Positions 19,931 to 38,198 are shown, counted from the stretch's first letter. The stretch: 64,000 bases of DNA from an uncultured bacterium (GCA_903910645.1 CAIWAD010000124.1:16445-80444), one strand, 5' to 3'. The notes: generated from the letters alone by a model not told the origin. Translations and numbers: made by a program.

Positions 19931-20955
19931 GGCGCCACCTCCCCGGCCGGAAGTTCCGCCGACAGGTAGGGCAGATAGCGATAGGCCTGCACGCGCCGGT
20001 TGTACTGATCCACGATGTAGAGGTGGTCCCCGTGGAAGCAGAGCGCGCTGGGCAGCAGGAACTGGTCGCCCGCCCTGCCCGTGCCGCCGAACCAGTACAA
20101 AAGGGCGCCGCTGCGGCTGAAGACCTGGATGCGGCTGAAGGCGGCATCGCTCACATAAAGATTGCCGTCGCCATCGAAGGCCAGTCCCTTGGGAAACATG
20201 AAACCGCCCGGCGAGTGGTCGTAGACTCCGAAGGAGAACAGGAAGTCGCCCTGGGCGTTGAAGCACTGCACGCGATGGTTCAGGGCGTCCAGCACCCACA
20301 GTTGACCGTCGGGATCGCTGGCCACCGCCACGGGATGCAGGAACTGGCCCTGCGCGCCGCCTTCTCCACCCAGGGTGCGCTGCCAGCGGCCCTGGCCGTC
20401 GAAGCTCTCCACCACATGGCGGCCCGCATCCACGATGTGCAGCAGCGAGCCATCCCAGTGCATCTGTCCCGGCCTCTTCCATCCCTTGGGCGAAGACAGT
20501 TCGCCCTTCACATTGCCGGATCCGGACTCCAACAGGAAGACCTTGCCCCGGCCCGCGTCGCTCATGGCGATGCCGGCGGGAAAGGCGGCCACGCCCGTGG
20601 GCGTGGCGAACAAGGGCGAGGCCATCACTTCGAACGGTCGGGGCGAGCAGCCCTCGGGGCTAAGTCGCAGAAGGCGGGACAAATCGCCGTCGCACACCAG
20701 CACGCGGCCATCTGCATCCACATCCACATCGGTGGGGCGTCCCACGCTGGCGGTGGCGCAGCTGCCCGTCACCAGGCGCAGGGCCTTCATGCCCAGGCCT
20801 CCGTCCAGTCGCACCTGGGAAAGGACATCCCCCTCCTGCAGGTAGAGCGTGTCCGTGCCGGCGGCCACCAGGGGTCGCGGCCCCTGATGCGTCACCGTGG
20901 CGCATCCCGCCGCCAGGAGCAGGGAAAGGAAAAGGACAGGCAGGCGTCGCCTCAT
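19927..20955 (-). CDS. NHL-repeat beta-propeller lipoprotein
   Basis: I chose the ATG at 20955 (ATGA overlap). Lipobox MRRRLPVLFLSLLLAAGC. NHL repeats: GQFLHPVAVASDPDGQLWVLDALNHRVQCF, FMFPKGLAFDGDGNLYVSDAAFSRIQVF and FLLPSALCFHGDHLYIVDQYNRRVQAY. Confidence 0.85.
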   Translation of the reverse strand: MRRRLPVLFLSLLLAAGCATVTHQGPRPLVAAGTDTLYLQEGDVLSQVRLDGGLGMKALRLVTGSCATASVGRPTDVDVDADGRVLVCDGDLSRLLRLSPEGCSPRPFEVMASPLFATPTGVAAFPAGIAMSDAGRGKVFLLESGSGNVKGELSSPKGWKRPGQMHWDGSLLHIVDAGRHVVESFDGQGRWQRTLGGEGGAQGQFLHPVAVASDPDGQLWVLDALNHRVQCFNAQGDFLFSFGVYDHSPGGFMFPKGLAFDGDGNLYVSDAAFSRIQVFSRSGALLYWFGGTGRAGDQFLLPSALCFHGDHLYIVDQYNRRVQAYRYLPYLSAELPAGEVAP

Positions 20956-23165: not shown

Positions 23166-23188
23166 GGGGCCCTCCGGCGCGGGCTGTG

Positions 23189-24133
23189 TCAGGGAATGTC
23201 GAAGCGGATGATGCGGCTGGCGCGGCTGTCCACCACCCACCACGAAGCTCCGCAACACACAATGGCCGTGGGACCCTGGAGTTGCCAGGGCTTGCCCTTC
23301 AGCATCAACTGGCCCTGGCTCTGGGCGTACTCGTCATAGGCGTGCACCATGCCCAGGTAGCTGTCGGTGATGAGCAGGCCCTTGCCGTTCCAGCAGGCGC
23401 AGGCGCCCTTGGGACGATAGAGACGCTCGCCATCGGTGCCAAAAGAGCCCACCATGCGGTCAAAGTTCCCCAAGCGCGTGTAGGCCTGGATGCGGCCGCC
23501 CAGCACATCAATCACCATGAAGCCGTTCATGTGGCGGGACAGGATGCCCGGAAACTTGAACTCCTCCACGCGATCGCCCGGCTTGCCGTCGGGCAGGCTC
23601 ATGCCCGCCATGCGACGCATGGGGCGGATCTCGTCGGCGCCCCGGCCAATCACTTTCAACAGGGCGCCGTCGTAGCTGATCATCAGCAGGCGATGGTTGT
23701 CGTTGTCGGAGACCACCAGCTTGTCCTCCAGCGCCAGCACATCCACCGGATCGCAATTGGCCGGAAGCTTGATGGTCTGCACGGGACGCCCGTCCAGGGT
23801 GGTGACGAAAATGGAGCCGGCATCCGGATCGCTCACATAAAGGCGGTCCTTCCAGATATCGTTGCCCACCGGGTTCACAAAACCATCGTGGCGGATTTCA
23901 CGCATCAGGGCGCCCTGGGGGCTGATGACCACCACGCGCTTGTTCAGGCCGTCCACCACATAGGCGTTGCCGCGCTCGTCGGCCGCCAGGTCCGTGGGAT
24001 AAGTGGTGCCGGCGGCCACATCCTCCAGAATGCGCACATCCACCGCGCCGGCCACGCCGGCCAGCATCAGAAGCAGGATCGGGAGGAGCAGGGCTCTCCG
24101 ATCAGTACGCGGGCGGCAGGAAGAAGACTTCAT
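23189..24133 (-). CDS. NHL-repeat beta-propeller protein, secreted
   Basis: Signal peptide ...RRALLLPILLLMLAGVAGA. Repeats: PTDLAADERGNAYVVDGLNKRVVVI, NPVGNDIWKDRLYVSDPDAGSIFV and VLALEDKLVVSDNDNHRLLMI. Confidence 0.8.
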   Translation of the reverse strand: MKSSSCRPRTDRRALLLPILLLMLAGVAGAVDVRILEDVAAGTTYPTDLAADERGNAYVVDGLNKRVVVISPQGALMREIRHDGFVNPVGNDIWKDRLYVSDPDAGSIFVTTLDGRPVQTIKLPANCDPVDVLALEDKLVVSDNDNHRLLMISYDGALLKVIGRGADEIRPMRRMAGMSLPDGKPGDRVEEFKFPGILSRHMNGFMVIDVLGGRIQAYTRLGNFDRMVGSFGTDGERLYRPKGACACWNGKGLLITDSYLGMVHAYDEYAQSQGQLMLKGKPWQLQGPTAIVCCGASWWVVDSRASRIIRFDIP

Positions 24134-26681
24134 TGTCGGTCACACTCGCGGTTATGGCGCTGCTGCGCAGTTGGCGAATCCGCTCCTCGTCGAAGCCCAC
24201 GCCGTGGAAGTCCACCAGCCCACCCTCGGGCACATGGCATTCTCCACAGGTGGCGCCCGTGCCTTCGCCGGACTGGATGCGATCGTGGAAGCGGTCCTTG
24301 GTGTCCTTCATGCGTGCCTGGGTCATGGGCGCGGAATTCTGCCGGTACTCCTCGGCACGAGGGCTGTCCAGATCGGCATAAAGCGGCTTTCCGCCCACCT
24401 TCAAGCCCAGCAGGCTGGTGTAATTGTCCAGCCCGGTGAAGGGCGGTGTGCCGGTCAACTTATAGGGAGCCTTGGGCTCGCCCTGGGGCTGGCGGCGGAG
24501 ATCCAGCCAGCTCCACTCCGCGCCCTTGCGGTCGGCCTCCTTGGCGTGGCAGGTCTCGCAGGTCATGAAGCGGCTGTGCAGGTTCAAGTAGGCCCGCGTC
24601 TTGCGGTCGTTCTGGTGCGGCAACATGGCGTGGCAGAGCAGGCACTCGCTTTGGCGCAGGGTGGAATCCGCCGTCACCACCGGCTCGGCATCGTGGAAGC
24701 GTCTGTGGCGCCAATCCACATCCTCGTTGGCGACACGCAAGGGATAACTGGGATCCGCCAGCGCCGCCTCCTTGTCCGCCAGCGGGCGCTTGCACCACTG
24801 GGCCACCACATCGGCGGCGGCCGGAGCCTTGTCCACTCCCAGGTAGAGGCGGAAGGACCACACCATGGCGGCGCAGGTGACAATGGTGAGAAACAGAAAG
24901 GACCATCCCAGGGTGCGGGCCAGGGTGTCGCGCGTGCTGCGGCGACGCTCCCGGGCCCCGGTGACCTCGTTCACCAGGATGGGGCCGAACTTCTCCACGG
25001 CATCCGGCTCCATGAGCGCGCCGTGCTCCTCCTCCATGTCCTCTTCGCCCATTTTGCCGTCAATCCACACCTCGCTCATGGGCCAGCGGCTGGGCTTCCA
25101 GTGCACGTTCCAGAAATGCCACACCACGATGGCCGCCACGGCAAGGATGGCCTCCAGCGAATGCACCAGGCGGGCCAGGTCCACGATGAACTTGCTGCCC
25201 AGGTGCTCCATCCACAGGATGATGCCCGTTCCTGTCATCACCACGGAGCCCCAGGCGAAGGCCCAGTACTCCATTTTCTCGCCATAGTTGAAGAAGCCGA
25301 AGGCCGGGCGATCCTTCCGCAGGCCCAACATGAAGCTGATGTTGTGGCTGATGAGCTTCATGTCCGATGGGCCGGGGAGCATGGCCCACATCAGGGCCCT
25401 GCCGCGCTTGCTGAACACCGCATAGCCCAGGTGGTAGAAACTCACCAGCGTGAGCAGGATGGCCGCCACGCGATGGCTCCAGTCACGCACGGGCATGAAG
25501 TATTCCCACCGCACAAGGGTGCCGAAGCGCTCCGGCGGAATCCACAGCATGACGCCTGTCAGAGCCAGCAGGGTGAAGCTGGTGAACATGACCACATGAC
25601 TGATGCGCTCCGCTGGGCTCAGGCGGCGGAAGACACGACGCACGGCGCCTTCGGGCTTTTGGTGGTGGGCCGCTGCGTGCGCCTTTCGATGGCGACGCCA
25701 GGCGATGTAGTCCAGCAGATTGTGGCCCAGCATGCCGCCAATGGTGAGCAGGATGATCCAGATGTAAATGCGCTTCACCCACACCAGGGCCTGCACCTTG
25801 GTGCCCTGGTAAAGGTTGTGCATGCTGCCGGCGGTGGCGAAAGACACCGTGGCGCCATCGTGGCAACCGGTTGTGCTGCAGGTTTTCTGCAGGTTCGCCG
25901 GGTTGATCATGGACTTGGAATCCTGATGGCTCAGGATGTTGTGGTGGCCATGGCAGTCGGCGCACACGGGGCTGCGCTTGTCCCCGAAGTTGAAGCCGCG
26001 GCCATGGAAGGACTCCAGGAAGCTGGAGACCATGGTGCCATCGATGAGCAAGGTTTCAAGGCTGTCGGACACCAGCTCGTTGTCCGTGTGGCAGCGGATG
26101 CAGGCCTCGAAGTTCTGCTGATGCCTCCAGTACTCGTCCTCGCTGATGTGCAGGGCCAGGTGCTTGAAGTCCTCGTCCAGGGCGTTGTAGTTCTCGTGGC
26201 AGGTGAGGCACTTGGCCTTGGCGCGCTCCATGTCCTCCGGAAGCTTCTGCCAGTAGACGCTGTTGAAGTGGCAGTCCTTGCACACCGGCTTGCGGTGGTC
26301 GTAGGGGCCCTTCCCCGTCTTGCCATGCACGCTGGCCGCCAGGTCCCTGGCCATTTTCTGATGGGAGTAATCGGCGCCGGTGTAGGGATCGATTACATGG
26401 CAGGCCACGCTGCAGTCCACCTTTTTCACCGGCGCGCGGTGGGGCACCTGATCGATGTCCGTGTGGCACTGGCGGCAGGCGAAGCGGCCATGGATGCTGC
26501 TTTTATGGACGCCTTCGTCGATGGTGAAATTGCGCACGCCCGCGCTGTCGCTGACGGCCATCCAGGGCTTGCCATGGCAGAAGAGGCAATTCTCGGGATC
26601 GAAGGTGCTGTCCTGGGCCACGGCCAGTGTGGCCAGCAGCAGTCCCGCCAGGGCAAGGATCTTCCGCAGGGGATCCATCAT
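24102..26681 (-). CDS. Fused inner-membrane redox protein: N-terminal multihaem c domain, FdnI/PhsC-like cytochrome b domain, TM segment and C-terminal trihaem c domain
   Basis: I chose the ATG at 26681 (MMDPLRKILALAGLLLATLAVA; ATGA overlap). N-domain: CLFCH, CRQCH, CSVACH, CKDCH, CLTCH, CIRCH, CADCH, CSTTGCH. b-domain: RISHVVMFTSFTLLALTG...WSHRVAAILL...EYWAFAWGSVVMTGTG...HSLEAILAVAAIVVWHFWNVH. C-domain: CLLCH, CETCH, CGECH. Confidence 0.85.
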   Translation of the reverse strand: MMDPLRKILALAGLLLATLAVAQDSTFDPENCLFCHGKPWMAVSDSAGVRNFTIDEGVHKSSIHGRFACRQCHTDIDQVPHRAPVKKVDCSVACHVIDPYTGADYSHQKMARDLAASVHGKTGKGPYDHRKPVCKDCHFNSVYWQKLPEDMERAKAKCLTCHENYNALDEDFKHLALHISEDEYWRHQQNFEACIRCHTDNELVSDSLETLLIDGTMVSSFLESFHGRGFNFGDKRSPVCADCHGHHNILSHQDSKSMINPANLQKTCSTTGCHDGATVSFATAGSMHNLYQGTKVQALVWVKRIYIWIILLTIGGMLGHNLLDYIAWRRHRKAHAAAHHQKPEGAVRRVFRRLSPAERISHVVMFTSFTLLALTGVMLWIPPERFGTLVRWEYFMPVRDWSHRVAAILLTLVSFYHLGYAVFSKRGRALMWAMLPGPSDMKLISHNISFMLGLRKDRPAFGFFNYGEKMEYWAFAWGSVVMTGTGIILWMEHLGSKFIVDLARLVHSLEAILAVAAIVVWHFWNVHWKPSRWPMSEVWIDGKMGEEDMEEEHGALMEPDAVEKFGPILVNEVTGARERRRSTRDTLARTLGWSFLFLTIVTCAAMVWSFRLYLGVDKAPAAADVVAQWCKRPLADKEAALADPSYPLRVANEDVDWRHRRFHDAEPVVTADSTLRQSECLLCHAMLPHQNDRKTRAYLNLHSRFMTCETCHAKEADRKGAEWSWLDLRRQPQGEPKAPYKLTGTPPFTGLDNYTSLLGLKVGGKPLYADLDSPRAEEYRQNSAPMTQARMKDTKDRFHDRIQSGEGTGATCGECHVPEGGLVDFHGVGFDEERIRQLRSSAITASVTDNEVFFLPPAY

Positions 26682-27481
26682 TCCTCCAGCATGGGGAAGT
26701 GGAAGGGTTCGTAATTCTCCACCATGCCCACGGCGGCGGAGTGCGTCAATTCGTGGATGCGCGGTTGGCTGAAGCCCAGCGCGACCCATGGGAAAGCGGC
26801 TTCCGGCGTGTGGCAGGCCAGGCAGGCGCTGGGCGTTTTGCCCACATGCTCCTCGGCGAACTCGCGGAACTGGGCCTCGTCGATCTCCAGCCCGCTCAGC
26901 GCGTCGGCGCGGAACTGCTTGTAGCGCTGGTCATCGTAGGGCGTGAACAGCAGGGTGTTGCCGCCTGCCGCCGTGAGCACAGGGACGATGCGGCTGATGA
27001 AGTTGTGCCGCCCGGACAGGACGCCATCCTTCCCCCGCTCAAGTCCATAGGGGCCCAGGGCCGTGACCGTGTTGTCCGTGTCGAAGGAGGTCCACTCCAG
27101 CGAGGTGCGCGCGCGCATGGTGTCGTCCAGATGGCAGGCCAGACAGCTCATGAAATGGCTGTGCTGGTTGTAGAAGGCACGGCGCTTGGGATCCTTGGTG
27201 TGCGGGAAAAGCGGGTGGCATGTCAGGCAGGCCTCCTGCTGGCCCAGGGGCAGCAGGCTGTGCACCTCGATGTTGTGGAAGTGCTGCTCCTGGTTGCGGT
27301 AGTCCTCGAACCAGGTCTCCAGCTGCTCCACATGGTCCGTGAAGTGGCGCCTTCCCTGCTTTTCCTCCTCGTGGGCCTTGTGGGGACGGTTGGTCATCCA
27401 CACCAGCCAGGCGGACACAGCGCTGCCGATGACCAGGGCCGTAAGGCCGTAGGCCACCCGGCTGAAGGTTCTCATGCTCAT
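26678..27481 (-). CDS. Membrane-anchored trihaem cytochrome c, homologous to the C-terminal domain of the 24102-26681 product
   Basis: N-terminal TM segment VAYGLTALVIGSAVSAWLVW. Motifs CLTCHPLFPHTKD, CLACHLDD and CLACHTPE align with CLLCHAMLPHQND, CETCHAKE and CGECHVPE. Confidence 0.85.
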   Translation of the reverse strand: MSMRTFSRVAYGLTALVIGSAVSAWLVWMTNRPHKAHEEEKQGRRHFTDHVEQLETWFEDYRNQEQHFHNIEVHSLLPLGQQEACLTCHPLFPHTKDPKRRAFYNQHSHFMSCLACHLDDTMRARTSLEWTSFDTDNTVTALGPYGLERGKDGVLSGRHNFISRIVPVLTAAGGNTLLFTPYDDQRYKQFRADALSGLEIDEAQFREFAEEHVGKTPSACLACHTPEAAFPWVALGFSQPRIHELTHSAAVGMVENYEPFHFPMLEE

Positions 27482-28263
27482 GCGTCACCATCCCGGCCGG
27501 CGGCGCCGTCCTGCTTGTCGTCGTCGTCGTGGCGTCGCACACGGCCACGCTTCAACTGCTCAAGGATGTCCTCCAGCTCGCGGGGATGCTCGTGCATCAT
27601 CTCCTCTTCGCTAAGGGTGCCGCGGTACCACACCTTGTTGGCGGGCCACACGCGGGGATTGAAGTGCACGTTGTAGAAGTGCCAGATGACAATGGCCAGG
27701 AAGGCCAGCAGGGCCTCGTCACTGTGGGCCACATAGGCGATCTGGATGACCTCTGAGGGGAACCACTGGCCGCTGGCCTCCGGATACCACAGCAACAGGC
27801 CGCTGCCCGCCATGATGAACATGCCCCAGAACACCGCCCAGTAGTCGAATTTTTCGATGTAGGAGAAGCGGTGGAAGCGGGGACGCTCCTCACTCAGGAA
27901 AAGGAAGTAGCGGATGTTCGTGGCAATGTCCCGGGCATCCTGCAGGTTCGGCAGCAGATGCATGCCGGAAAGGGGCGTGCGGTTGCGCACGATGTTGAAG
28001 AACACATAGAACACATGGACGGCGAAATCGGCGATCATCACCACCGCGGCCACGCGATGAATGGTGCGCACCGTGTCGATGCCCCCGAAAAGGTTGATGG
28101 AGTGCGACCAGAAGGCGGTGTCCGGGAACTTGATGGGGAAGCCCGTCACCACCAGGACAATGAATGGCACAAACATGAAGATGTGCTGCAGGCGCTGGCT
28201 GAGCGAGAAACGCACATACTCCCGCCTTCCCCCCACCACGCGAATGCGATCACTCACTCTCAT
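27478..28263 (-). CDS. Cytochrome b subunit (FdnI / Ni-Fe hydrogenase b-type / PhsC-like)
   Basis: I chose the ATG at 28263 (MRVSDRIRVV...). RLQHIFMFVPFIVLVVTG, TIHRVAAVVMIADFAVHVFYV, DYWAVFWGMFIMAGSG and HSDEALLAFLAIVIWHFYNVHFNP. The ATGA overlap is with the downstream gene. Confidence 0.85.
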   Translation of the reverse strand: MRVSDRIRVVGGRREYVRFSLSQRLQHIFMFVPFIVLVVTGFPIKFPDTAFWSHSINLFGGIDTVRTIHRVAAVVMIADFAVHVFYVFFNIVRNRTPLSGMHLLPNLQDARDIATNIRYFLFLSEERPRFHRFSYIEKFDYWAVFWGMFIMAGSGLLLWYPEASGQWFPSEVIQIAYVAHSDEALLAFLAIVIWHFYNVHFNPRVWPANKVWYRGTLSEEEMMHEHPRELEDILEQLKRGRVRRHDDDDKQDGAAGRDGDA

Positions 28264-29296
28264 GGCGGCCTCCTCCCGAGAAGCGCCCGTGGACCCAGCG
28301 GCCGAAGTCCAGCAGGATGTGGCTGAAGAGCAGGGCCATGGTGATGGCCGTGAGCAGGATGAAGCCCCAGGTGACCACATAGACCACCGGATTGCTCTCC
28401 ATGGTGGGCTTGCTGTGGATGGCCGAGCGCGCGAACTCAATGCTGGGGCTGATGTGGCAGCCCGTGGTGCCGCAGGTCTGGCGGATGTTCGCCGTGGACA
28501 GCGTGGAGGCCGGGTCGTCCTGGGGCAGCACAAGATGACTGGTGTGGCAATCCGCGCAGTTGGCCACGCCATCCAGGCCGCGCCGCATGGCCTTGCCATG
28601 GAAGTGGTGCTGGAAGCCTTCCACCTGCGTGCTGCTCACATTCACGCTCTCCATCAGCGTGGCGTCGCCGTGACAGCTTGAGCACAAGCGCACGATGTCC
28701 AGCGAGTTCTCCGCGCTGCGGTGGGAAGTGTGGCGGTCAATGTGCTGGATGACGCCTTCCAGGGACTTGCCGTCGTGGCAGTTGGCGCAGTGCTTGGCCT
28801 GCTCCTGCACGCGCTGGTCCGGGGCCGCCATGCGATGGCTGCCGTGGCAGTACTTGCAGCCGGGCTTGGCGGCGTTGGTTTCGGGATCGTCCTTGGGATT
28901 CTGCCCGTGCACGCTCATGGCGTGGGCTTCCACTTCGCCGCGGTGGGAGAACACCGTCAGCTCGAAGGGGCGGTTCACATGGCAGGTCTTGCCGCAGTCC
29001 ACCTTCTGCACCACCTGTGGATGCGGAAACGCATCGATGTCCGCGTGGCAGTCCCGGCAGCCGATGCCCTTGTGGGAGCTGTGCATCACGGTCTCGGCGC
29101 TCACCTCGTAGAGGCGGAAACGGCCCTTGTCGTCGTGGCGCGACAACAGGGGCAGCCCATGGCAGAGTTCGCAGTTCTCCGAATCCGCCAGACGCGGATT
29201 GGCCAGCGAAGACGCCAGCGGCAGCAAGGCGAGAAGGGCCGGGAGCAGGCCCCTGGCCAGAGAGGCCAAGGCGCCCCTACAGGTCGTGACAGGCAT
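28250..29296 (-). CDS. Multihaem cytochrome c with a C-terminal membrane anchor (6 CxxCH, one CX3CH, one CX4CH)
   Basis: Signal peptide ...LLPALLALLPLASSLA. Motifs: CELCH, CRDCH, CGKTCH, CKYCH, CANCH, CSSCH, CADCH, CGTTGCH. C-terminal TM segment VVYVVTWGFILLTAITMALLF. Confidence 0.9.
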   Translation of the reverse strand: MPVTTCRGALASLARGLLPALLALLPLASSLANPRLADSENCELCHGLPLLSRHDDKGRFRLYEVSAETVMHSSHKGIGCRDCHADIDAFPHPQVVQKVDCGKTCHVNRPFELTVFSHRGEVEAHAMSVHGQNPKDDPETNAAKPGCKYCHGSHRMAAPDQRVQEQAKHCANCHDGKSLEGVIQHIDRHTSHRSAENSLDIVRLCSSCHGDATLMESVNVSSTQVEGFQHHFHGKAMRRGLDGVANCADCHTSHLVLPQDDPASTLSTANIRQTCGTTGCHISPSIEFARSAIHSKPTMESNPVVYVVTWGFILLTAITMALLFSHILLDFGRWVHGRFSGGGRHESE

Positions 29297-30215
29297 AGCA
29301 GATCCGCTCTTTTGCCGCCCGCAGGAGCTTGGAGGCGGGGGCGCCTCCGCCCGAGCAGGCGGGATTTGGGCTGTGACAGGTGGCGCAGGCCACCGTTCCC
29401 CCGGGTCCCAGGGGCAGGATCACGCCGCTCTGGGCCTGGAACCGTTCCAGCGCGGCGGCGGTGTTCATCTTCAATCTGTTGTGCAGCACGGAGCGTCCCA
29501 CATGCTCCCGCTCATGCTTCACATCCTTGTGGCACTTCAGGCACAGTTCGCCCTGGGGCAGCTGAAGGCCCTTGCCGGGCTGGGCCGCATCGCCGCCCTC
29601 CGCGCTGTGGCAGTACCAGCAGGCCTTGTTGTCCTCGGACTGGCCGTGGGGATAGGTCTGCTTGTAGAGTTCGCGCGTGTGGCACTGGTAGCAGAAGTCC
29701 GTCTCCCGGGGCCATGGTCCGCCACGCAGCATGCTGCGGTTCTCCCGCGCCACGCGATAGCTGGTGGTCTCGTCGCAGTTGATGGCGTGGCAGGTCAGGC
29801 AAGTGCCACGGCCTTCCTTCAGGCGCGCATTGGCCGGACTGGGCGCCTTGGAGCTTGCCCCGGAGAAATCCGTGGGATGGATTTCACGCAAATGGGCCTG
29901 GGGGTCGTGGCATTCCACACAAGCGCCGTCCCGCCAGTTGGCCGCCGCCGGAGTCTGCCCGGGCGTGTGGCATTGGTCGCAACGGTTGGGCCGGCCGTGG
30001 GGGTTGTCCTTGCCAGGCAGAGTCAGGTGCTGCTTCTGGGCGGGCCTGGGTGCCGGGGCCGCCGCACGCGCGGGCACGGGTGGCTTGCACAAGCCACAGG
30101 ACGGTTTGGCGCAGTCATCATGGGTGGCCGGGGCAGGAGCCGCTCCCAGCTGGGCACCAAGCAGCAGCGCCAGCAAACCGACAACCCAGGAACCTGACCA
30201 CGAGCGTTGAACCAT
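29277..30215 (-). CDS. Periplasmic octahaem cytochrome c
   Basis: I chose the ATG at 30215 (MVQRSWSGSWVVGLLALLLGAQLGAA). Motifs: CDQCH, CVECH, CLTCH, CYQCH, CWYCH, CLKCH, CATCH, CYACH. Confidence 0.9.
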   Translation of the reverse strand: MVQRSWSGSWVVGLLALLLGAQLGAAPAPATHDDCAKPSCGLCKPPVPARAAAPAPRPAQKQHLTLPGKDNPHGRPNRCDQCHTPGQTPAAANWRDGACVECHDPQAHLREIHPTDFSGASSKAPSPANARLKEGRGTCLTCHAINCDETTSYRVARENRSMLRGGPWPRETDFCYQCHTRELYKQTYPHGQSEDNKACWYCHSAEGGDAAQPGKGLQLPQGELCLKCHKDVKHEREHVGRSVLHNRLKMNTAAALERFQAQSGVILPLGPGGTVACATCHSPNPACSGGGAPASKLLRAAKERICYACHDL

Positions 30216-30222
30216 CACGCCA

Positions 30223-31410
30223 TCACTCCAGCGGATAGGATAGGCCTTGCTCCTCCCAGCGATTGGGAAGGGGCAGGTCGTCATGGATGAGCGCATTGGC
30301 GCCGAAGCGCAGGCTGAGCAGGTCGTAGCCCAGCACATTGAGGTAGAAACCCACGAAGGCGCTGGTCTGGCCCGTCCAGCAGTAGAGGACATTGGTGTTG
30401 GCCGGATGCAGGGCGCTCAGGTCCTGATTGGTGGTCAGGCTGCCCGGGCTAAGCTGATAGGCGCCCTGGACATGGCCGTACGTGAAGTAGTCGTCCTGCA
30501 GCCAGTAGTTGTGGATGATGAAGGAGCCGGGGTTGTCCATGACCTCGTAGGCGTTCACAGCGTTGGCCGTGAAGCCCTCCGCCAACACCGCCGACACCCG
30601 CGCCTGCAGAATGGCCTGCCCCGAGGCCAGTCCCGTGGACAGCTCGGGCCAGTCGAAGGTGGGAAGGGCGGGACTGTTGCCGTAGCTCATCACCGATTCG
30701 TATGCGTTGCTGATGCCTGCATTCCAGGGCCCTGCCAGCAGGTCGTTCCACCCCGCCATGCCCCATTGCAGACTGAAGGCGTCGTGGCCCAACATGCGCA
30801 ATGCCATGGTGGCGAAGGCCGCCACCTGTCCCGTGTCACAAGCCAGCAGCACCGGCAGGCCGCCACTGTTCTGCCCTTCCACCGTGGACACCAGCGTGGT
30901 AAGGCTGGCATTGCGAGCGCCGGGAATGTGCCCTGCCAGGAAGGCCTGGCTGCTGCGGAGATCCACCACGAAGTACTGGCCCAGATTGGCGTTCACCGTG
31001 GTGGCAGGCAGGATCCAGTTGGTGGCCCAGGTGGCGAACTGGGCGTCCGTGATGGCCGCCAGGCGGTTGAATTCCCCGCGCACGGAGATGGAGGTGGAAC
31101 GGCTGGCGCTGTCCACGCCATCGCTGACCTCCACCAGGATCGTCACCTGCCCGGAAGCCGGTGCCTGCCACTGGATGTTGGCCGTGCTGCCAATGGCCAG
31201 ACCATCAACTGTCCAGGCATAGGTCAAGGCGTCGCCATCGGCGTCGCTGGCCGTGCAGGCAAGAGTGATGGTCTCGCCGGGATCGGGGGTGGGATCGCTG
31301 GCGGTGACACCGCTGATGACAGGCGGGCTGTTGCCCTCCTCAGAAGAGGAACAGCCACCCAAAATGAGGGCGGCCATCAGGCCCGTGACGAAAATGCGTG
31401 CGCGACCCAT
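30223..31410 (-). CDS. Lipoprotein with a PKD/Ig-like domain and tandem rhodanese domains
   Basis: Lipobox LMAALILGGCSSSEEG. PKD-like segment ITLACTASDADGDALTYAWTV. Rhodanese motifs: LAGHIPGARNA, the loop CDTGQV, YGHVQGAYQL and the loop CWTGQTS. Confidence 0.8.
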   Translation of the reverse strand: MGRARIFVTGLMAALILGGCSSSEEGNSPPVISGVTASDPTPDPGETITLACTASDADGDALTYAWTVDGLAIGSTANIQWQAPASGQVTILVEVSDGVDSASRSTSISVRGEFNRLAAITDAQFATWATNWILPATTVNANLGQYFVVDLRSSQAFLAGHIPGARNASLTTLVSTVEGQNSGGLPVLLACDTGQVAAFATMALRMLGHDAFSLQWGMAGWNDLLAGPWNAGISNAYESVMSYGNSPALPTFDWPELSTGLASGQAILQARVSAVLAEGFTANAVNAYEVMDNPGSFIIHNYWLQDDYFTYGHVQGAYQLSPGSLTTNQDLSALHPANTNVLYCWTGQTSAFVGFYLNVLGYDLLSLRFGANALIHDDLPLPNRWEEQGLSYPLE

Positions 31411-31471
31411 GGCCGATCCTTTCCGGAAATGAATCCGGGCCGCCCGAGGGCGGCCCGGACACGAGGTGGAC

Positions 31472-32431
31472 TTAGTTGGTTTCCAGCTCGTAGTTGAAGC
31501 CGGTGGCGGCCCAGGCGTTGGCCGGCATGGTGTCGTGGTACAGCGCGTTGGCGCCGTACTTCAGGCTAAGCACATCATAGCCCAGGGCGTTCAGGTAGAA
31601 ACCCACCAGGGCGCTGGTCTGGCCCGTGTAGCAGTAGAGCACCTGCTGGTCGGCGGGATCCAGGGCGTCCAGGTCCGTGGTGGTGGTCAGGTTGCCCGGA
31701 GTCAGCTGGTAGGCGCCGTCGATGTGGCCAACGGCGTAGTGGGCGGCGCTCCAGTAGTTGAAGATCTGGTAGTCACCCGGAGTGGCCATTACGGTGGCTG
31801 CGGTGACGATGTTGGGCGTCAGGCCTTCAGCCAGGATGGCGTTCACGCGGGCCTCCAGGATGGCCTGGCCATCGGTGAGGCCGGTGTTCAGTGCAGGGAA
31901 CTCGAAGGTGCCCAGGGCGGGGCTGGCGCTGGTGACCATGTTGCCCACATAGGCGTTGCTGATGCCCGTGGCCCAGCTGGTGTTCAAGGCGTCATTCCAA
32001 CCGCCCATGCCCCACTTCACGGAGAAGGCGTCCGTCCAGCCCAGCATGCGCAGAGCCATGGTGGCGAAGGCCGAAGTCTGGCCCGTGTAGCACACCACCG
32101 CCACCGGCAGGTCGCTGGTGTTGTTGGTGGCGATGTTGTCGGCCATGGTGGTCAGCGTGGCGTTGTGGGCGCCGGGGATGTGGCCGGCAGCGTAGTCCGT
32201 GGCGCTGCGCAGGTCCACCACATAAAGGTTGGCCAGGTTGGTGTGGACATAGTCCGCGCCCTGCACCCAGCCCGTGGTCCAGCCGGCGAAGCCCGTGTCC
32301 GTGAGCTCGCTCATGAGGGCGAACTCGTCCACCGGTGTGGTATTGTCGTCGTCGTCATCCTCGGAGCAGCCGGTGAAGACGGAAAGGGTGAGCGCCACGG
32401 ACAAAGCCAAGGCGAGCTTCTGGAACTTCAT
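31472..32431 (-). CDS. Lipoprotein with tandem rhodanese domains, both with a CYTGQTS active-site loop
   Basis: I chose the ATG at 32431, preceded by a GGAG. Lipobox LTLSVFTGCSEDDDDDNTT. Motifs: AAGHIPGAHNA, VVCYTGQTSAFATMALRMLGW and LYCYTGQTSALVGFYLNALGY. Confidence 0.85.
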   Translation of the reverse strand: MKFQKLALALSVALTLSVFTGCSEDDDDDNTTPVDEFALMSELTDTGFAGWTTGWVQGADYVHTNLANLYVVDLRSATDYAAGHIPGAHNATLTTMADNIATNNTSDLPVAVVCYTGQTSAFATMALRMLGWTDAFSVKWGMGGWNDALNTSWATGISNAYVGNMVTSASPALGTFEFPALNTGLTDGQAILEARVNAILAEGLTPNIVTAATVMATPGDYQIFNYWSAAHYAVGHIDGAYQLTPGNLTTTTDLDALDPADQQVLYCYTGQTSALVGFYLNALGYDVLSLKYGANALYHDTMPANAWAATGFNYELETN

Positions 32432-32531: not shown

Positions 32532-33860
32532 TCAATGTCTGTTCCAATACCTCGTGATGCTGTCGTCCACTGCAGTGGCCCGGTTGGCCCGCACATACTC
32601 GTCGGGGTCCTCCAGACCCGTGACGGACGACTTCAAACTGTCCAGATGGCTCAGCCACAGGAAGCGCCTGGCGTTGGCCTCCTCGTGCGGGCCCTGGACA
32701 TGGCAGCTCATCCAGCAGTCTCCCATGCTGTAGGCAGGGTTGGACAGCGCCACGGCCGTCTGGGGCGTGAAGCGCTGGATGTTGTGGGGACTGGAGTACT
32801 CCCAGGTGGGGAAGGAGGACCAGTTCTGCAGACTGGGCCAGCCCCACTCGCGAAAGCCATCCTTGATCACCGGGATGTGGCGCACGGTGACCCACTCCTC
32901 ATGCTCCACCGGATGGGTGGAAATTGCGCCTGTGTTGCGACCAATGCGGAAGTCAGTGTACTCAGAATACCCCTCGGGGTCTCCACTGTTCCACACGCCG
33001 CCGGAGTGGCAATTCAGGCAGTTGGTGTAGGGCTGGCTGTGGCACACGGTGCAGGACAGGCCCTCTTCCATGGAGCCTTCCCCCGGCCAGTGATAGGCGT
33101 GGAAAAGGTTGTCCTCCGCCGCCAGGCTGTGGCAGTTGGTGCAGCGCGGCATGCCTTCCACTTCATAACGGCTGGTGTAGTCCGTGCGGCCGTCCCCGTG
33201 CAGATTCTCCTGGTGGCAGAAGAAACAGTCGAAGCCCAGCTCATTGTGCACATCGGGGCGATTGCCCTCGTGGTGGCCGTTGTAGTCGTTGCCCACGCGG
33301 CTGCCATGGCAGGCGGTGCAGTTGTTTTCAATGTCAGGCGTGCGCTTGAAGCGATGGCTGTCCAGCAGGCCGCCCTTCACACTGGTGGGACGGGACACAT
33401 GGCATTGGCCGCAGGTGGCGTGGCAGCTGGAACATTCCCGCGCATGGCCTTCCTTGAGCAGCTCGGGACAATCCTCCCAGCTTTCGTAGCCGGCGCGCAG
33501 GGCGATCTTCGCCTTTTCGCCCCACAGCTGGCTGTGCATGGACGTGGCATGCAGGTCCACGATCTGGGCATGGCAACCCGTGCCGTTGCAATTCAGCTCC
33601 GGCTGGGTGCTGGGATCCCGCGTGATGCCCTTCACCGTGGGCTTTTCACGAATGACGCGCCCGTTGCTGGTGTAGCGCACCTCGAACTGGTGGGCCGCCG
33701 CCATGGCCACCCACAAATCATCCCGCGAGCCACTGGCCGCCACCACCTGATCCACGCCGCCGTGGCAGGTGACACATCCCACAGCCGCATGGTTGGGGTC
33801 AACTTCGGCGTAGCTGTCGGCGTCGATGAACACTTTTGCATAAGGCTCCAACGGAGCCAC
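32532..33860 (-). CDS. Multihaem cytochrome c body (8 CxxCH plus CX4CH and CX3CH variants) with no signal peptide of its own
   Basis: Motifs: CVTCH, CNGTGCH, CSSCH, CGQCH, CTACH, CFFCH, CTNCH, CTVCH, CLNCH, CWMSCH. The N-terminus (GTG start) V/MAPLEPYAKVFIDADSYAEVD is acidic and not signal-like. The gene is in the same frame as 33870-34094. Confidence 0.8.
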   Translation of the reverse strand: MAPLEPYAKVFIDADSYAEVDPNHAAVGCVTCHGGVDQVVAASGSRDDLWVAMAAAHQFEVRYTSNGRVIREKPTVKGITRDPSTQPELNCNGTGCHAQIVDLHATSMHSQLWGEKAKIALRAGYESWEDCPELLKEGHARECSSCHATCGQCHVSRPTSVKGGLLDSHRFKRTPDIENNCTACHGSRVGNDYNGHHEGNRPDVHNELGFDCFFCHQENLHGDGRTDYTSRYEVEGMPRCTNCHSLAAEDNLFHAYHWPGEGSMEEGLSCTVCHSQPYTNCLNCHSGGVWNSGDPEGYSEYTDFRIGRNTGAISTHPVEHEEWVTVRHIPVIKDGFREWGWPSLQNWSSFPTWEYSSPHNIQRFTPQTAVALSNPAYSMGDCWMSCHVQGPHEEANARRFLWLSHLDSLKSSVTGLEDPDEYVRANRATAVDDSITRYWNRH

Positions 33861-33869
33861 GGCGCCGCC

Positions 33870-34094
33870 TCAGCCACCACCCGCGCTTTCACTGGCCGCC
33901 TCTTCCACCGCCAACAGACGCAGATAGTCCCGGTTGGTGTGGCAGCTCTCGCAGCTAAGGGTCACCGCGTCGCCCGACGAGGCGGGATCCGCGGTGATGG
34001 GGTCGATGCGTTCGCACCCCTGCTGCAAGGCGGCAAAGAGGCTCCCCCACAACAGAAGGCGCCACCATGCCTGTGAAAATGCGCTTGTCGTCAT
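33870..34094 (-). CDS. Short signal-peptide/lipoprotein-like ORF with one CxxCH; probably the N-terminus of the 32532-33860 cytochrome, interrupted by an in-frame TGA
   Basis: MTTSAFSQAWWRLLLWGSLFAALQQGC...LSCESCH...ESAGGG, then TGA at 33872-33870. It is in frame (234 nt, or 78 codons, between the two starts) with the next ORF. Confidence 0.55.
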   Translation of the reverse strand: MTTSAFSQAWWRLLLWGSLFAALQQGCERIDPITADPASSGDAVTLSCESCHTNRDYLRLLAVEEAASESAGGG

Positions 34095-37574: not shown

Positions 37575-38198
37575 TCAGCGACTGCCTTCCAACTCCAGCA
37601 GCGCCTGCTTTCGCGGCAGACCTCCGGCATAGCCCACCAGTGTCCCCGAGGCGCCCACAACCCGATGGCAGGGCACCACCAGGGCCACGCGATTGCGCCC
37701 GTTGGCGCCGGCCACGGCCCGGGAAGCGGTGGGTTGGCCCACCTTGTCCGCCAGTTGGGCGTAACTGATGGTGGTCCCCAGGGGAATACGGCGCAGCTCC
37801 GCCCACACCTTCTCCTCAAAAGGCGTGCCGGGAAGGCAGAGGGGCACGGAAAAGCCCTTTCCCTGGCCGGCGAAGTAGGAAGCCAGCTCCTTCTCCAATT
37901 GGGCGATCAACGGGTGGGTGGAGGCCTGGAAAGCGGCATCCATGCGGCGCACAAGCGTGGCCAGCTGGCCTTCCAGGTTGTGGCGTCCATGGAACTCCAG
38001 GAGACAGACGCCCTGGTCCACGGCGCCCGCCAGAAGCGGTCCCATGGGACTGGACAGGCAGCACAAGTGGATTGTGGTGGCAGGTGAGGCGGGAGCGGAA
38101 ATGGCCTCCACAGTGGCCTGGAAGGGGCCAAGGGCGCGGAAGTCCGCGCGGAATTGGTTTGCCAAGGGGATCCTCCTTTGCCCGTAGGGACACGACAT
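37575..38198 (-). CDS. ogt: Methylated-DNA--protein-cysteine methyltransferase (Ogt/MGMT)
   Basis: IPLGTTISYAQLA...RAVAGANGRNRVALVVPCHRVVGASG contains the PCHR active site. The N-terminus is uncertain because the listed ATG sits at the centre of a 28-bp palindrome. Confidence 0.85.
   Translation of the reverse strand: MSCPYGQRRIPLANQFRADFRALGPFQATVEAISAPASPATTIHLCCLSSPMGPLLAGAVDQGVCLLEFHGRHNLEGQLATLVRRMDAAFQASTHPLIAQLEKELASYFAGQGKGFSVPLCLPGTPFEEKVWAELRRIPLGTTISYAQLADKVGQPTASRAVAGANGRNRVALVVPCHRVVGASGTLVGYAGGLPRKQALLELEGSR

What the first reader, a model, noticed from the sequence alone, without database searches (positions are those of the whole stretch)
30223..32431. Two paralogous tandem-rhodanese lipoproteins embedded in the cytochrome operon
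**Seen in the sequence**
- Adjacent genes each encode a lipobox followed by two rhodanese domains.
- Three of the four active-site loops fit the catalytic Cys-x-x-G-x-R/T form: CYTGQT twice and CWTGQT. The fourth is CDTGQV.
- The second gene adds a PKD/Ig-like domain.
- The two genes share DNA-level blocks, for example GCGCTGGTCTGGCCCGT near 30358 and 31608, so they are a tandem duplication.

**Established knowledge**
- Rhodanese domains carry persulfide or perselenide sulfane atoms.
- The periplasmic Sud protein feeds polysulfide-sulfur to the Wolinella polysulfide reductase.
- In Geobacter, a rhodanese-like lipoprotein (ExtH) belongs to the extHIJKL conduit, which is linked to selenite/tellurite reduction.

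**Inference**
- Here the rhodaneses may hand sulfur or selenium species to the multihaem proteins, or take them from those proteins.
- That would suggest the conduit's substrate is a chalcogen (S0, polysulfide, thiosulfate or selenite) rather than, or as well as, metals.
Basis: partly seen in the sequence, partly recalled or inferred. Interest (0 to 1): 0.65.

Follow-up and report, generated by a model that had tools for sequence, protein, structure and literature searches.

The report
Rhodanese lipoproteins partnered with selenocysteine multihaem cytochrome
The two rhodanese lipoprotein genes are real, and they are the conserved partners of the gene just upstream, an unannotated selenocysteine-containing 11-haem cytochrome; together they look like a widespread, molybdenum-free enzyme module for respiring sulfur (or selenium) compounds.

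Summary
RhoA (31472-32431, minus strand) and RhoB (30223-31410, minus strand) are adjacent paralogous lipoproteins, 53% identical. Each has two rhodanese domains and a cysteine in every active-site loop.

The upstream cytochrome gene runs 34094-32532 and reads through an in-frame UGA at 33872-33870.
- That UGA aligns with an invariant Cys (54 Cys, 14 UGA) in a G-G-[U/C]-G-G loop.
- It is followed by a hairpin with strong covariation, which fits a selenocysteine-insertion (SECIS) element.
- Gene callers split this gene into 74-aa and 442-aa pieces.

The 11-haem Sec/Cys cytochrome and a multi-domain rhodanese lipoprotein are neighbours nearly everywhere:
- in 70 of 73 genome loci found through the rhodanese;
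- in 46 of 48 metagenome loci found through the UGA motif.

Three relatives that lost the Sec/Cys lack a rhodanese gene; two of them sit in otherwise syntenic clusters.

The cytochrome's only structural match is the Shewanella octahaem tetrathionate reductase. It is not detectably related to Geobacter ExtKL/MccSep, the closest analogue.

Most likely the rhodaneses relay sulfane sulfur to the Sec/Cys cytochrome, which reduces it. Substrate and direction are inferred, not shown.

The parts
32532..34094 (-). Gene for an 11-haem lipoprotein cytochrome with selenocysteine at residue 75 (520 codons). It has a signal peptide with lipobox Cys27, 9 CXXCH motifs, one CX4CH and one CX3CH.
   Evidence: - Reading frame and in-frame TGA.
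- 68-sequence alignment: the Sec column holds 14 U and 54 C; all 11 haem motifs and Cys27 are conserved.
- Gene callers split it into 74-aa and 442-aa products.
33870..33872 (-). In-frame UGA read as selenocysteine, within the motif ESAGGG-U-GGAVAPLEPY.
   Evidence: - It aligns with an invariant Cys in G-G-C-G-G of 54 homologues, and with UGA in 14 others (15 counting L004).
- TGA is the ordinary stop codon of 13 of 19 genes checked in the window, so the genetic code is not reassigned.
33844..33858 (-). SECIS-like hairpin GGCUCC-GUU-GGAGCC. It starts at the 15th base counted from the U of the UGA, after an 11-nt spacer.
   Evidence: - In 123 sequences, 94.3% of cells are paired, against 55% or less when the partner is slid.
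- 5 of 6 pairs show compensatory changes (63 cells), and 0 of 500 shuffles reach the observed values.
- The stem positions were left as N in the search pattern, so the result is not built in.
31472..32431 (-). RhoA: a lipoprotein with two rhodanese domains, both with active-site loop CYTGQT (at 32075-32092 and 31616-31633).
30223..31410 (-). RhoB: a paralogous lipoprotein with an N-terminal PKD/Ig-like domain (about 31081-31332) and two rhodanese domains. Loops are CDTGQV (30823-30840) and CWTGQT (30364-30381).
   Evidence: -.
- Orthologues P0009 and P0010 keep the CDTGQV loop.
24102..30215 (-). Likely electron-input genes:
- 8-haem cytochrome, 29277-30215
- cytochrome with a C-terminal hydrophobic segment (6 CXXCH plus 2 CX3-4CH motifs), 28250-29296
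- cytochrome b, 27478-28263
- 3-haem c7-like protein, 26678-27481
- 858-aa fusion of a multihaem cytochrome and cytochrome b, 24102-26678
   Evidence: - Pfam and NCBIfam hits.
- Gene calls on near-identical contigs.
- Haem motif counts.
- Their link to the core module is inferred from gene order only.
16488..24133 (-). Downstream sub-cluster resembling a porin-cytochrome conduit:
- NHL-repeat protein, 23189-24133
- 18-haem cytochrome, 20952-23258
- NHL-repeat lipoprotein, 19927-20955
- 590-aa protein with no family match that ends in Trp, possibly an outer-membrane barrel, 18137-19912
- 11-12-haem cytochrome, 16488-18143
   Evidence: -.
- The barrel assignment is an inference from the signal peptide and the C-terminal aromatic residue only.
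- This sub-cluster may be functionally separate from the rhodanese module.

Best explanation
**What it is**
RhoA and RhoB are the sulfur-carrier subunits of a two-part terminal reductase. Its catalytic subunit is the 11-haem lipoprotein cytochrome encoded immediately upstream. That cytochrome carries a selenocysteine (a cysteine in many relatives) on a glycine-rich loop.

**Proposed mechanism (every step is inferred)**
1. The rhodanese cysteines take up sulfane sulfur from polysulfide, elemental sulfur or thiosulfate, and hold it as persulfides.
2. They present it to the Sec/Cys of the cytochrome, forming a Se-S (or S-S) intermediate next to a haem.
3. Electrons arrive from quinol through the downstream cytochrome b and multihaem proteins.
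4. These electrons release the sulfur as sulfide.

**Shown here**
- The gene anatomy.
- The selenocysteine codon and its SECIS hairpin.
- The near-obligate pairing of the two genes.
- The loss of the rhodanese in most relatives that lost the Sec/Cys.

**Inferred**
- The substrate, the direction of electron flow and the relay chemistry.
For: **1. The rhodanese domains look catalytic**
- Each has a six-residue loop starting with Cys. The Cys is conserved in 82 of 84 family members in both domains, and the lipobox Cys in 78 of 84.

**2. The partner cytochrome is a selenoprotein**
- The in-frame UGA aligns with 54 Cys.
- The SECIS hairpin covaries: 5 of 6 pairs are compensated and 0 of 500 shuffles match.
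- In pair 16-28, G-C changes to C-G, which swaps Ala/Pro for Pro/Ala in the protein.

**3. The pairing holds from both directions**
- The cytochrome lies directly upstream of the tandem rhodanese in 70 of 73 testable loci, from MAGs labelled as Bacteroidota, Ignavibacteria, Calditrichaceae, Marinimicrobia and other lineages.
- A rhodanese gene is adjacent in 46 of 48 metagenome loci found through the UGA motif alone. Its architecture varies: two-domain, or four-domain with CASGHR loops.

**4. Co-loss**
- Homologues with Asp, His or Ser/Ala in place of Sec/Cys have no rhodanese gene; two of the three sit in clusters syntenic with the window.
- A Cys-type member of the same clade keeps a short rhodanese lipoprotein gene.

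**5. Sulfur context**
- The two rhodanese loci without the cytochrome have YeeE/YedE sulfur-transport genes instead.
- DsrE, DsrC and a pyridine-nucleotide-disulfide oxidoreductase-family gene (Pyr_redox_2, weak match) lie nearby in a metagenome contig encoding P0090, which NCBI labels Candidatus Marinimicrobia.

**6. Fold**

**7. Haem ligands**
- There are 11 haem motifs but only 9-10 conserved non-motif histidines. This leaves at least one haem without a bis-His partner.

**8. Precedents in the literature**
- Geobacter ExtH (a rhodanese lipoprotein) sits with ExtKL/MccSep, a selenocysteine polysulfide reductase essential for S0 respiration (PMC13510729, PMC5877670, PMC6148476).
- In Dethiobacter alkaliphilus, which lacks Dsr and molybdopterin sulfur reductases, a 10-haem cytochrome next to a 34.8-kDa rhodanese protein is upregulated on thiosulfate (PMC10376724).

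**9. Regulation**
- 41 loci carry a conserved ~231-aa gene, mostly divergently transcribed, just upstream of the cytochrome; its sequenced representative is a Crp/Fnr-type regulator with an N-terminal Cys cluster. This suggests anaerobic control.
Against: - There is no biochemical or expression data for this family itself.
- Homology of the Dethiobacter pair to this one was not tested directly.
- The cytochrome model is only moderately confident (pLDDT 66.6), and the Sec/Cys loop is below 50, so its position relative to a haem is unknown.
- Foldseek found nothing in the PDB. The tetrathionate reductase match is distant (16% identity), and the family model TIGR04315 does not match.
- No tRNA-Sec was found in the 64-kb window, and selA, selB and selD were not specifically searched for.
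- One Sec/Cys-less homologue (P0135) still has a rhodanese neighbour.
- Many Bacteroidales loci have no obvious quinol-oxidising partner next to the pair.
- The operon also holds genes resembling a porin-cytochrome conduit, so a metal-related role cannot be excluded.
Confidence: 0.55

Rival explanations
1. Same module, opposite direction. The rhodaneses collect sulfane sulfur from sulfide, polysulfide or thiosulfate, and the Sec/Cys cytochrome oxidises it, much as the His/Cys-haem enzymes TsdA and SoxAX do. Electrons then pass to the quinone pool or out through the downstream cytochromes.
For: - TsdA and tetrathionate reductases are reversible and use Cys at a haem (discussed in PMC13510729; PMC5146829, listed).
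- DsrE/DsrC-type sulfur-relay genes lie near one Marinimicrobia-type locus.
- The operon holds large cytochromes that could carry electrons outward.
Against: - Many carriers are MAGs labelled Bacteroidales, Marinilabiliales or Ignavibacteriales; that these groups are largely anaerobic fermenters or respirers is general knowledge, not tested here.
- Many loci (41) have a conserved Crp/Fnr-type regulator gene upstream.
- The closest analogues with data (MccSep, and the Dethiobacter cluster on thiosulfate) act reductively (PMC13510729, PMC10376724).
- None of this is decisive.
Confidence: 0.15
2. The physiological substrate is selenium. The rhodaneses bind selenium as perselenide, and the cytochrome reduces selenite or handles selenium for detoxification or trafficking.
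For: - Deleting extI in the Geobacter ext cluster impairs selenite and tellurite reduction (PMC5877670).
- MccSep supports selenite-dependent methyl viologen oxidation.
- In one Tenuifilaceae genome, genes with SelD-type (AIRS), Se_S_carrier, TusA and cysteine-desulfurase-type (Aminotran_5) Pfam matches lie immediately upstream of the Cys-type module.
- Rhodanese can carry selenium (Ogasawara et al. 2001, cited in PMC5877670).
Against: - Neighbours in other loci are sulfur-related: YeeE/YedE, DsrE and DsrC.
- The selenium-gene adjacency was seen in one locus only.
- Selenium is scarce compared with sulfur in the sulfidic and sediment habitats implied by some record names.
Confidence: 0.1
3. 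The rhodaneses are maturation or repair factors. They would persulfidate, or remove sulfur from, the Sec/Cys haem-proximal residue of the cytochrome, rather than deliver substrate turnover after turnover.
For: - The tight coupling between the Sec/Cys and the rhodanese, including the co-loss, fits this equally well.
- Haem-ligating cysteines in SoxAX and TsdA are often found persulfurated (own knowledge).
Against: - Up to four active rhodanese domains per protein, or two paralogous proteins, all lipid-anchored, is a lot for a maturation factor.
- The acidic stretch after the lipobox Cys resembles a surface-export signal of Bacteroidota lipoproteins (own knowledge). That would suggest exposure to the environment.
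Confidence: 0.08
4. The cluster is a metal or extracellular electron-transfer conduit, and the rhodanese proteins are non-catalytic surface components with no role in sulfur or selenium chemistry.
For: - The operon holds an 18-haem cytochrome, NHL-repeat proteins and a barrel-like protein.
- ExtH was first described as a replacement for an extracellular cytochrome in a conduit (PMC6148476).
Against: - Both catalytic cysteines are conserved in 82 of 84 members.
- The pairing is with one specific Sec/Cys cytochrome, even in loci with no other cytochromes.
- The rhodanese is lost together with the Sec/Cys.
- Sulfur-transporter genes appear in the exceptional loci.
Confidence: 0.05

Closest known systems
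Geobacter sulfurreducens ExtH with ExtKL (MccSep), within extHIJKLMNOPQS
   Same: - A rhodanese-like lipoprotein is encoded in one cluster with a selenocysteine-containing multihaem cytochrome, further multihaem cytochromes and a cytochrome b.
- The selenoprotein gene is split by annotation at the UGA.
- MccSep is a polysulfide reductase essential for S0 respiration (PMC13510729, PMC5877670, PMC6148476).
   Different: - MccSep has 5 haems, with Sec at residue 325 and a haem-ligating Cys239. This cytochrome has 11 haem motifs, with Sec at residue 75 in a G-G-U-G-G loop.
- No detectable sequence relationship: PDB 9wt8 scores E=0.66 against the family profile, and the ExtKL model NF040886 does not match.
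- The rhodanese here is directly adjacent and near-obligate.
- No role for ExtH in sulfur reduction has been demonstrated.
- Lineages differ: Bacteroidota-, Ignavibacteria-, Calditrichaceae- and Marinimicrobia-labelled MAGs here, against Desulfobacterota and Nitrospirota.
Shewanella oneidensis octahaem tetrathionate reductase (OTR, PDB 1sp3)
   Same: - It is a multihaem enzyme acting on a sulfur compound, with an unusual haem ligand (Lys56; PMC3769277).
- The OTR family is listed as having selenoprotein members (PMC13188914).
   Different: - 8 haems against 11.
- 16% identity, and the family model TIGR04315 does not match.
- No lipoprotein anchor or rhodanese partner is known to me for OTR.
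- The model used for the comparison has only moderate confidence.
Wolinella succinogenes Sud with polysulfide reductase PsrABC
   Same: In concept: a periplasmic rhodanese-type protein binds polysulfide sulfur on a cysteine and hands it to a respiratory reductase (established knowledge).
   Different: - Sud is a soluble single-domain homodimer serving a molybdenum enzyme. RhoA and RhoB are lipid-anchored two-domain proteins serving a haem/selenocysteine enzyme.
- Sud (1qxn) matches the family profile only weakly, E=0.003.
- No molybdopterin enzyme was found among the cluster genes scanned.
Dethiobacter alkaliphilus cluster DealDRAFT_1917/1918
   Same: - A 10-haem cytochrome lies next to a 34.8-kDa rhodanese-domain protein and a helix-turn-helix regulator.
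- The cytochrome was earlier misnamed 'thiosulfate sulfurtransferase', the same misnomer JGI gives several homologues here.
- It is upregulated in thiosulfate-grown cells of an organism without Dsr or molybdopterin sulfur reductases (PMC10376724).
   Different: - It is a Firmicute.
- No Sec/Cys residue or obligate pairing was reported.
Tandem rhodanese with two active sites (Desulfitobacterium hafniense PhsE; PDB 6mxv from Francisella)
   Same: - Two rhodanese domains, each with its own catalytic cysteine.
- 6mxv is the best PDB match by sequence (E=3e-19) and by fold.
- PhsE is cited in PMC6148476 (reference 76) as an unusual two-active-site rhodanese.
   Different: - Low identity (about 18%).
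- The arrangement of the two domains differs (TM-score about 0.3 over the whole chain).
- No cytochrome partner is known for these.

Membership tests
Rhodanese / sulfurtransferase superfamily (PF00581) | Rhodanese-fold domain | tested here: met
   - Pfam E=1e-22 for RhoA (two stretches) and 4e-18 for RhoB.
- The AlphaFold model (pLDDT 90.8) matches solved rhodaneses.
Rhodanese / sulfurtransferase superfamily (PF00581) | Catalytic Cys opening a six-residue active-site loop (not the seven-residue CX5R loop of Cdc25/arsenate-reductase types) | tested here: met
   - All four loops start with Cys and read C-x-T-G-Q-T/V, followed by S or A.
- The Cys is conserved in 82 of 84 members in each domain.
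Rhodanese / sulfurtransferase superfamily (PF00581) | Sulfurtransferase activity or persulfide formation | not testable with these tools
   This needs a biochemical assay.
Bacterial selenoprotein | In-frame UGA with conserved coding sequence on both sides | tested here: met
   - A signal peptide and the first CXXCH lie upstream of the UGA, and ten haem motifs lie downstream in the same frame.
- The same layout occurs in 15 genome loci, and in 113 of 120 metagenome loci.
Bacterial selenoprotein | Homologues with Cys aligned to the UGA | tested here: met
   54 Cys and 14 UGA share one alignment column, within G-G-[U/C]-G-G.
Bacterial selenoprotein | SECIS stem-loop shortly downstream of the UGA | tested here: met
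   - The hairpin starts after an 11-nt spacer and has a GUU loop.
- 94.3% of cells are paired, 5 of 6 pairs are compensated, and 0 of 500 shuffles match.
Bacterial selenoprotein | Selenocysteine machinery (selA, selB, selC, selD) in the genome | not testable with these tools
   - No tRNA gene was found in the window.
- selA, selB and selD were not specifically searched for, and the rest of the genome is not available.
ExtKL / MccSep multihaem selenoprotein (NF040886) | Sequence membership: five haems, Sec near residue 325, haem-ligating Cys239 | tested here: not met
   - No NCBIfam match.
- MccSep chains 9wt8 and 9wt9 score E=0.66 against the family profile.
- This protein has 11 haem motifs and Sec at residue 75.
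ExtH rhodanese-like lipoprotein | Rhodanese lipoprotein encoded with a Sec-containing multihaem cytochrome | tested here: met
   This holds as an architectural feature. Descriptions of ExtH are from PMC6148476 and PMC5877670.
ExtH rhodanese-like lipoprotein | Sequence orthology to GSU2940 | not tested
- No NCBIfam family reached its cut-off for RhoA or RhoB.
- Sizes differ: ExtH is 49 kDa, while RhoA is 319 aa and RhoB 395 aa.
Sud polysulfide-sulfur transferase | Soluble single-domain rhodanese serving the molybdenum enzyme PsrABC | tested here: not met
   - RhoA and RhoB are two-domain lipoproteins.
- Sud (1qxn) matches at only E=0.003.
- No molybdopterin enzyme was found among the cluster genes scanned.
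Octahaem tetrathionate reductase family (TIGR04315) | Match to the family model; eight haems | tested here: not met
   No match at E up to 1, and the protein has 11 haem motifs.
Octahaem tetrathionate reductase family (TIGR04315) | Shared fold | tested here: inconclusive
   - The model's pLDDT is 66.6, and Foldseek found nothing.

The most novel reading that the evidence does not exclude
The cytochrome is a previously unrecognised selenoprotein family: an 11-haem lipoprotein with Sec (or Cys) in a G-G-U-G-G loop. Together with an obligate multi-domain rhodanese lipoprotein it forms a widespread, molybdenum-independent respiratory reductase for sulfane sulfur, thiosulfate or selenium. It occurs in MAGs labelled Bacteroidota, Ignavibacteria, Calditrichaceae and Marinimicrobia, in relatives labelled Candidatus Delongbacteria, and in other lineages. 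The rhodanese persulfide would be handed directly to the selenol.
Probability: 0.45. Interest if true: 0.85.

Novelty: new variant of a known kind. Interest (0 to 1): 0.75.

Why it matters
**Sulfur respiration without the canonical enzymes**
- Many anaerobes reduce or disproportionate elemental sulfur and thiosulfate without the canonical Psr, Phs or Dsr enzymes.
- The first haem/selenocysteine polysulfide reductase (MccSep) was reported only in 2026, and only for Desulfobacterota and Nitrospirota.
- This module would be a second, unrelated solution built on the same logic: a rhodanese carrier plus a Sec/Cys multihaem enzyme.
- It is present in hundreds of genomes and metagenome contigs, from MAGs labelled Bacteroidota, Ignavibacteria, Calditrichaceae, Marinimicrobia and others.

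**Annotation**
- It adds a selenoprotein family that annotation pipelines currently cut in two at the UGA.
- JGI labels some homologues 'thiosulfate sulfurtransferase'.

**A testable prediction**
- The co-loss pattern predicts that the rhodanese cysteines and the Sec/Cys act on the same substrate atom.

Tried and rejected
- **UGA reassignment (Gly or Trp codes):** rejected. TGA ends 13 of 19 genes checked in the window, and the aligned residue in homologues is Cys, not Gly.
- **Folding the 76 nt after the UGA as a whole:** not better than shuffles (z=-0.84). The signal is a short local hairpin, shown only by comparison across sequences.
- **First count of rhodanese next to metagenome Sec-cytochromes:** this gave 5 of 46. 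It was an artefact of a motif that was too narrow (C[YW]TGQ). A rhodanese HMM gave 46 of 48, including four-domain proteins with CASGHR loops and genes placed upstream.
- **Sequence searches for the cytochrome:** Pfam hits are sub-threshold only, and NCBIfam and the PDB give nothing.
- **Structure searches:** Foldseek against the PDB found no hit. The AlphaFold database library was not available, so structural relatives such as ExtH could not be looked for.
- **RNA searches:** no Rfam family and no tRNA in the window.
The Cys-type homologue P0147 was modelled instead.
- **The Ogt gene at 37575-38198:** it belongs to a family that has selenoprotein members, but here it carries the ordinary PCHRV cysteine.
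- **Literature searches** for this cytochrome-rhodanese pair in Marinimicrobia or Ignavibacteria found nothing relevant.
- **Not testable from a 64-kb window:** whether the genome lacks Psr, Phs, Sox or Dsr.


Full report
**1. The observation**

The window is GC-rich (65.6%). Its closest protein relatives carry the labels Candidatus Delongbacteria (78% identity) and Cloacimonetes. A run of minus-strand genes from about 34.1 kb down to 16.0 kb is dominated by c-type cytochromes.

- RhoA is 31472-32431 (319 aa) and RhoB is 30223-31410 (395 aa).
- Both begin with a signal peptide ending in a lipobox cysteine: VFTGC and ILGGC.
- Both contain two rhodanese domains (Pfam E=1e-22 and 4e-18; two matched stretches in NCBIfam).
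- They are 53% identical over both domains.
- The four active-site loops read CYTGQT, CYTGQT, CDTGQV and CWTGQT, as reported.
- RhoB's extra N-terminal domain gives only sub-threshold PKD/Ig hits.
- The shared 17-mer is exact at 30359 and 31611 and encodes part of the second loop.
- An AlphaFold model of RhoA is confident (pLDDT 90.8). It finds tandem rhodaneses and thiosulfate/mercaptopyruvate sulfurtransferases in the PDB, with a different arrangement of the two domains.

The duplication is old, because RhoB-type orthologues in relatives keep the CDTGQV loop.

**2. The family and its invariant neighbour**

RhoA has more than 1,000 homologues. Most are lipoproteins of about 330 aa at about 40% identity, and those with a source name are labelled Bacteroidota, Bacteroidales, Tenuifilaceae or Marinimicrobia. 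No curated NCBIfam family reaches its cut-off.
- In a sample of 37 sequences, the lipobox Cys and both loop cysteines are invariant.
- In 84 members from species-representative genomes, each loop Cys is present in 82.

I fetched 80 genomic loci. Nearly all have a cytochrome of about 450 aa with 8-10 CXXCH motifs immediately upstream on the same strand.
- Counting only loci with enough upstream sequence, this holds in 70 of 73.
- Two of the three exceptions have YeeE/YedE sulfur-transport genes and extra rhodanese genes in that place.
- A third gene family, mostly divergently transcribed, recurs upstream in 41 loci; its representative is a Crp/Fnr-type regulator.

**3. The neighbour is a selenoprotein**

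In the window, the listed ORF of this cytochrome (32532-33860) has no signal peptide. Reading upstream in the same frame crosses a single TGA at 33872-33870. It continues to an ATG at 34094, through a signal peptide, a lipobox Cys and a first CXXCH. The full protein has 520 residues, with the UGA at position 75 in the sequence ESAGGG-U-GGAVAPLEPY.

Evidence that this UGA encodes selenocysteine:
- The same in-frame TGA occurs in 15 of the genome loci. In 54 others the aligned residue is Cys, always within G-G-C-G-G.
- TGA is the normal stop codon of 13 of 19 genes checked in the window, so the genetic code is not reassigned.
- After an 11-nt spacer downstream of the UGA lies the hairpin GGCUCC-GUU-GGAGCC.
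- In the 123-sequence alignment the stem is 94.3% paired, against 55% or less when the partner is slid. Five of six pairs show compensatory changes in 63 cells, and no shuffle out of 500 reaches the observed values.
- One pair switches between G-C (78 sequences) and C-G (40 sequences). This changes Ala...Pro to Pro...Ala in the protein, so the RNA structure is being preserved at the expense of the protein sequence.

An in-frame UGA, Cys homologues and a covarying hairpin are the standard signature of a bacterial selenoprotein. Gene callers split the gene into 74-aa and 442-aa products. Most database homologues begin just after the UGA.

**4. What kind of cytochrome**

Across 68 sequences, 11 haem-binding motifs and the lipobox Cys are conserved. 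In the window the motifs are 9 CXXCH, one CX4CH and one CX3CH. Only 9-10 non-motif histidines are conserved, so at least one haem probably lacks a bis-His partner.

Comparison with known families:
- The protein matches no NCBIfam family. That includes the ExtKL model and the tetrathionate-reductase model.
- A profile of the family does not find MccSep in the PDB (9wt8, E=0.66).
- An AlphaFold model of a Cys-type homologue has moderate confidence (pLDDT 66.6; the Sec/Cys loop is below 50).
- Foldseek finds nothing for it.
- A 2026 review of prokaryotic selenoproteins lists only three cytochrome-type families: ExtKL, GSU2204 and the tetrathionate-reductase family (PMC13188914). I found no description of this one.

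**5. The coupling, tested from the other side**

The metagenome loci were found through the UGA motif, independently of any rhodanese.
- A rhodanese HMM finds an adjacent rhodanese-domain gene in 46 of 48 loci with at least 1 kb downstream, and in 26 of 27 with both flanks present.
- The architecture varies. Some have a tandem protein of about 330 aa, downstream or upstream. Others have a four-domain lipoprotein of 573-607 aa with loops CASGHR (three) and CKSGHR.
- The electron-input genes vary too. They include cytochrome b with multihaem proteins (the window), a Tat-exported Fe-S protein with cytochrome b, an HdrD-like membrane Fe-S/CCG protein, or Fe-S with NrfD.
- So the constant core is the Sec/Cys cytochrome plus a multi-rhodanese lipoprotein.

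**6. Co-loss**

A few homologues have lost the Sec/Cys.
- P0199 (Asp) and P0197 (His) sit in clusters otherwise syntenic with the window, in the order cytochrome, further cytochrome and cytochrome b genes, NHL-repeat protein, large cytochrome (P0197 also has a MerR regulator upstream). They have no rhodanese gene.
- P0142 (Ser/Ala) also has none.
- P0147, a Cys-type member of the same clade, keeps a short 142-aa rhodanese lipoprotein gene directly downstream.
- One exception, P0135, lacks the loop but keeps a rhodanese.

Such clusters exist, but they are those whose cytochrome has lost the residue the rhodanese presumably serves.

**7. Interpretation**

The best-supported reading is a two-part chalcogen reductase.
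- The lipid-anchored rhodaneses bind sulfane sulfur as persulfide.
- They pass it to the Sec/Cys of the cytochrome, which reduces it with electrons from the quinol-oxidising genes downstream.

Support from the literature:
- Geobacter ExtH is a rhodanese lipoprotein encoded with ExtKL/MccSep, a selenocysteine, five-haem polysulfide reductase essential for S0 respiration (PMC13510729; PMC5877670; PMC6148476).
- Dethiobacter alkaliphilus lacks Dsr and molybdopterin sulfur reductases. It has a 10-haem cytochrome next to a 34.8-kDa rhodanese protein and a regulator, and the cytochrome is upregulated on thiosulfate (PMC10376724). That cytochrome was once misnamed a thiosulfate sulfurtransferase, the same misnomer JGI applies to homologues here.
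- I could not test its homology directly.

The substrate, the direction and the relay chemistry are inferences. Rival readings are oxidation rather than reduction, selenium as the true substrate, a maturation role for the rhodaneses, or a purely metal-directed conduit. Only the last is clearly disfavoured.

**8. Verdict**

The finding is real and more interesting than written.
- It is not a member of the ExtKL, Sud or OTR families by sequence, but it works on the same plan. I therefore rate it a new variant of a known kind.
- The selenoprotein assignment is solid by comparative criteria.
- The functional assignment has about even odds and is directly testable.

Noticed in passing
window 16488-24133 (minus strand): A sub-cluster downstream of the rhodanese module: two NHL-repeat proteins (one a lipoprotein), an 18-haem cytochrome, an 11-12-haem cytochrome, and a 590-aa protein with no family match. 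That protein has a signal peptide and ends in ...RRLW, as outer-membrane barrels often do. It resembles a porin-cytochrome conduit.
   Followed up: partly
window 24102-26678 (minus strand): An 858-aa fusion protein: a multihaem cytochrome, a cytochrome b561-type membrane domain and a weak NapC/NirT-like match at the C-terminal end. It probably oxidises quinol. A separate 261-aa cytochrome b lies at 27478-28263.
   Followed up: partly
L084 827-5576 (Tenuifilaceae genome JBGGIO010000002.1): Immediately upstream of a Cys-type cytochrome-rhodanese pair lie selenium/sulfur-trafficking-type genes by Pfam: Aminotran_5 (cysteine-desulfurase type), TusA, Se_S_carrier, AIRS/AIRS_C (SelD type) and an NTP_transf_3 protein. 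Downstream follow a DUF5777 beta-barrel, a cytochrome, cytochrome b, an Fe-S protein and NrfD.
   Followed up: no
L077 8028-9881: In a locus where the tandem rhodanese lacks the cytochrome, two upstream proteins both end in ...VSGGC. One is a YeeE/YedE-rhodanese fusion of 417 aa, the other a 200-aa rhodanese. The shared C-terminal Gly-Gly-Cys tail is reminiscent of sulfur-carrier proteins.
   Followed up: no
L087, L095, L129, L184 (metagenome contigs): A different branch of the Sec-cytochrome family is followed by a four-domain rhodanese lipoprotein (573-607 aa; four CxSGxR-type loops, e.g. CASGHR/CGSGHR and CKSGHR) and a LysR regulator. In L095, and apparently in L087 and L184, a membrane HdrD-like Fe-S/CCG protein of about 664 aa follows.
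   Followed up: partly
L033 8760 and L058 2157: A variant Sec context, GVT-U-GDAG instead of GGG-U-GG, with a different downstream hairpin (AUUCCUGA-GGU-UCAGGAAU). L006, from a MAG assigned to Caldithrix abyssi, also has its own hairpin.
   Followed up: no
P0135, P0153, P0178, P0182, P0187, P0217: JGI names these haem proteins 'thiosulfate/3-mercaptopyruvate sulfurtransferase', although they have no rhodanese domain. The same misannotation was noted for Dethiobacter DealDRAFT_1917.
   Followed up: partly
window 38208-41510 and 37575-38198 (minus strand): Flanking genes unrelated to the finding: an IcmF-type fused isobutyryl/methylmalonyl-CoA mutase with a MeaB GTPase (1100-aa ORF), and an O6-methylguanine methyltransferase with the ordinary PCHRV cysteine.
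   Followed up: yes
RhoA residues 22-30 and the matching region in 37 homologues (alignment A1): The lipobox Cys is followed by a strongly acidic stretch (CSEDDDDD, CSDDDD, CQKEDE and similar). The cytochrome in Bacteroidales shows C-x-K-D-D/E. This resembles the surface-export signal of Bacteroidota lipoproteins (own knowledge), and would put both proteins on the cell surface.
   Followed up: no
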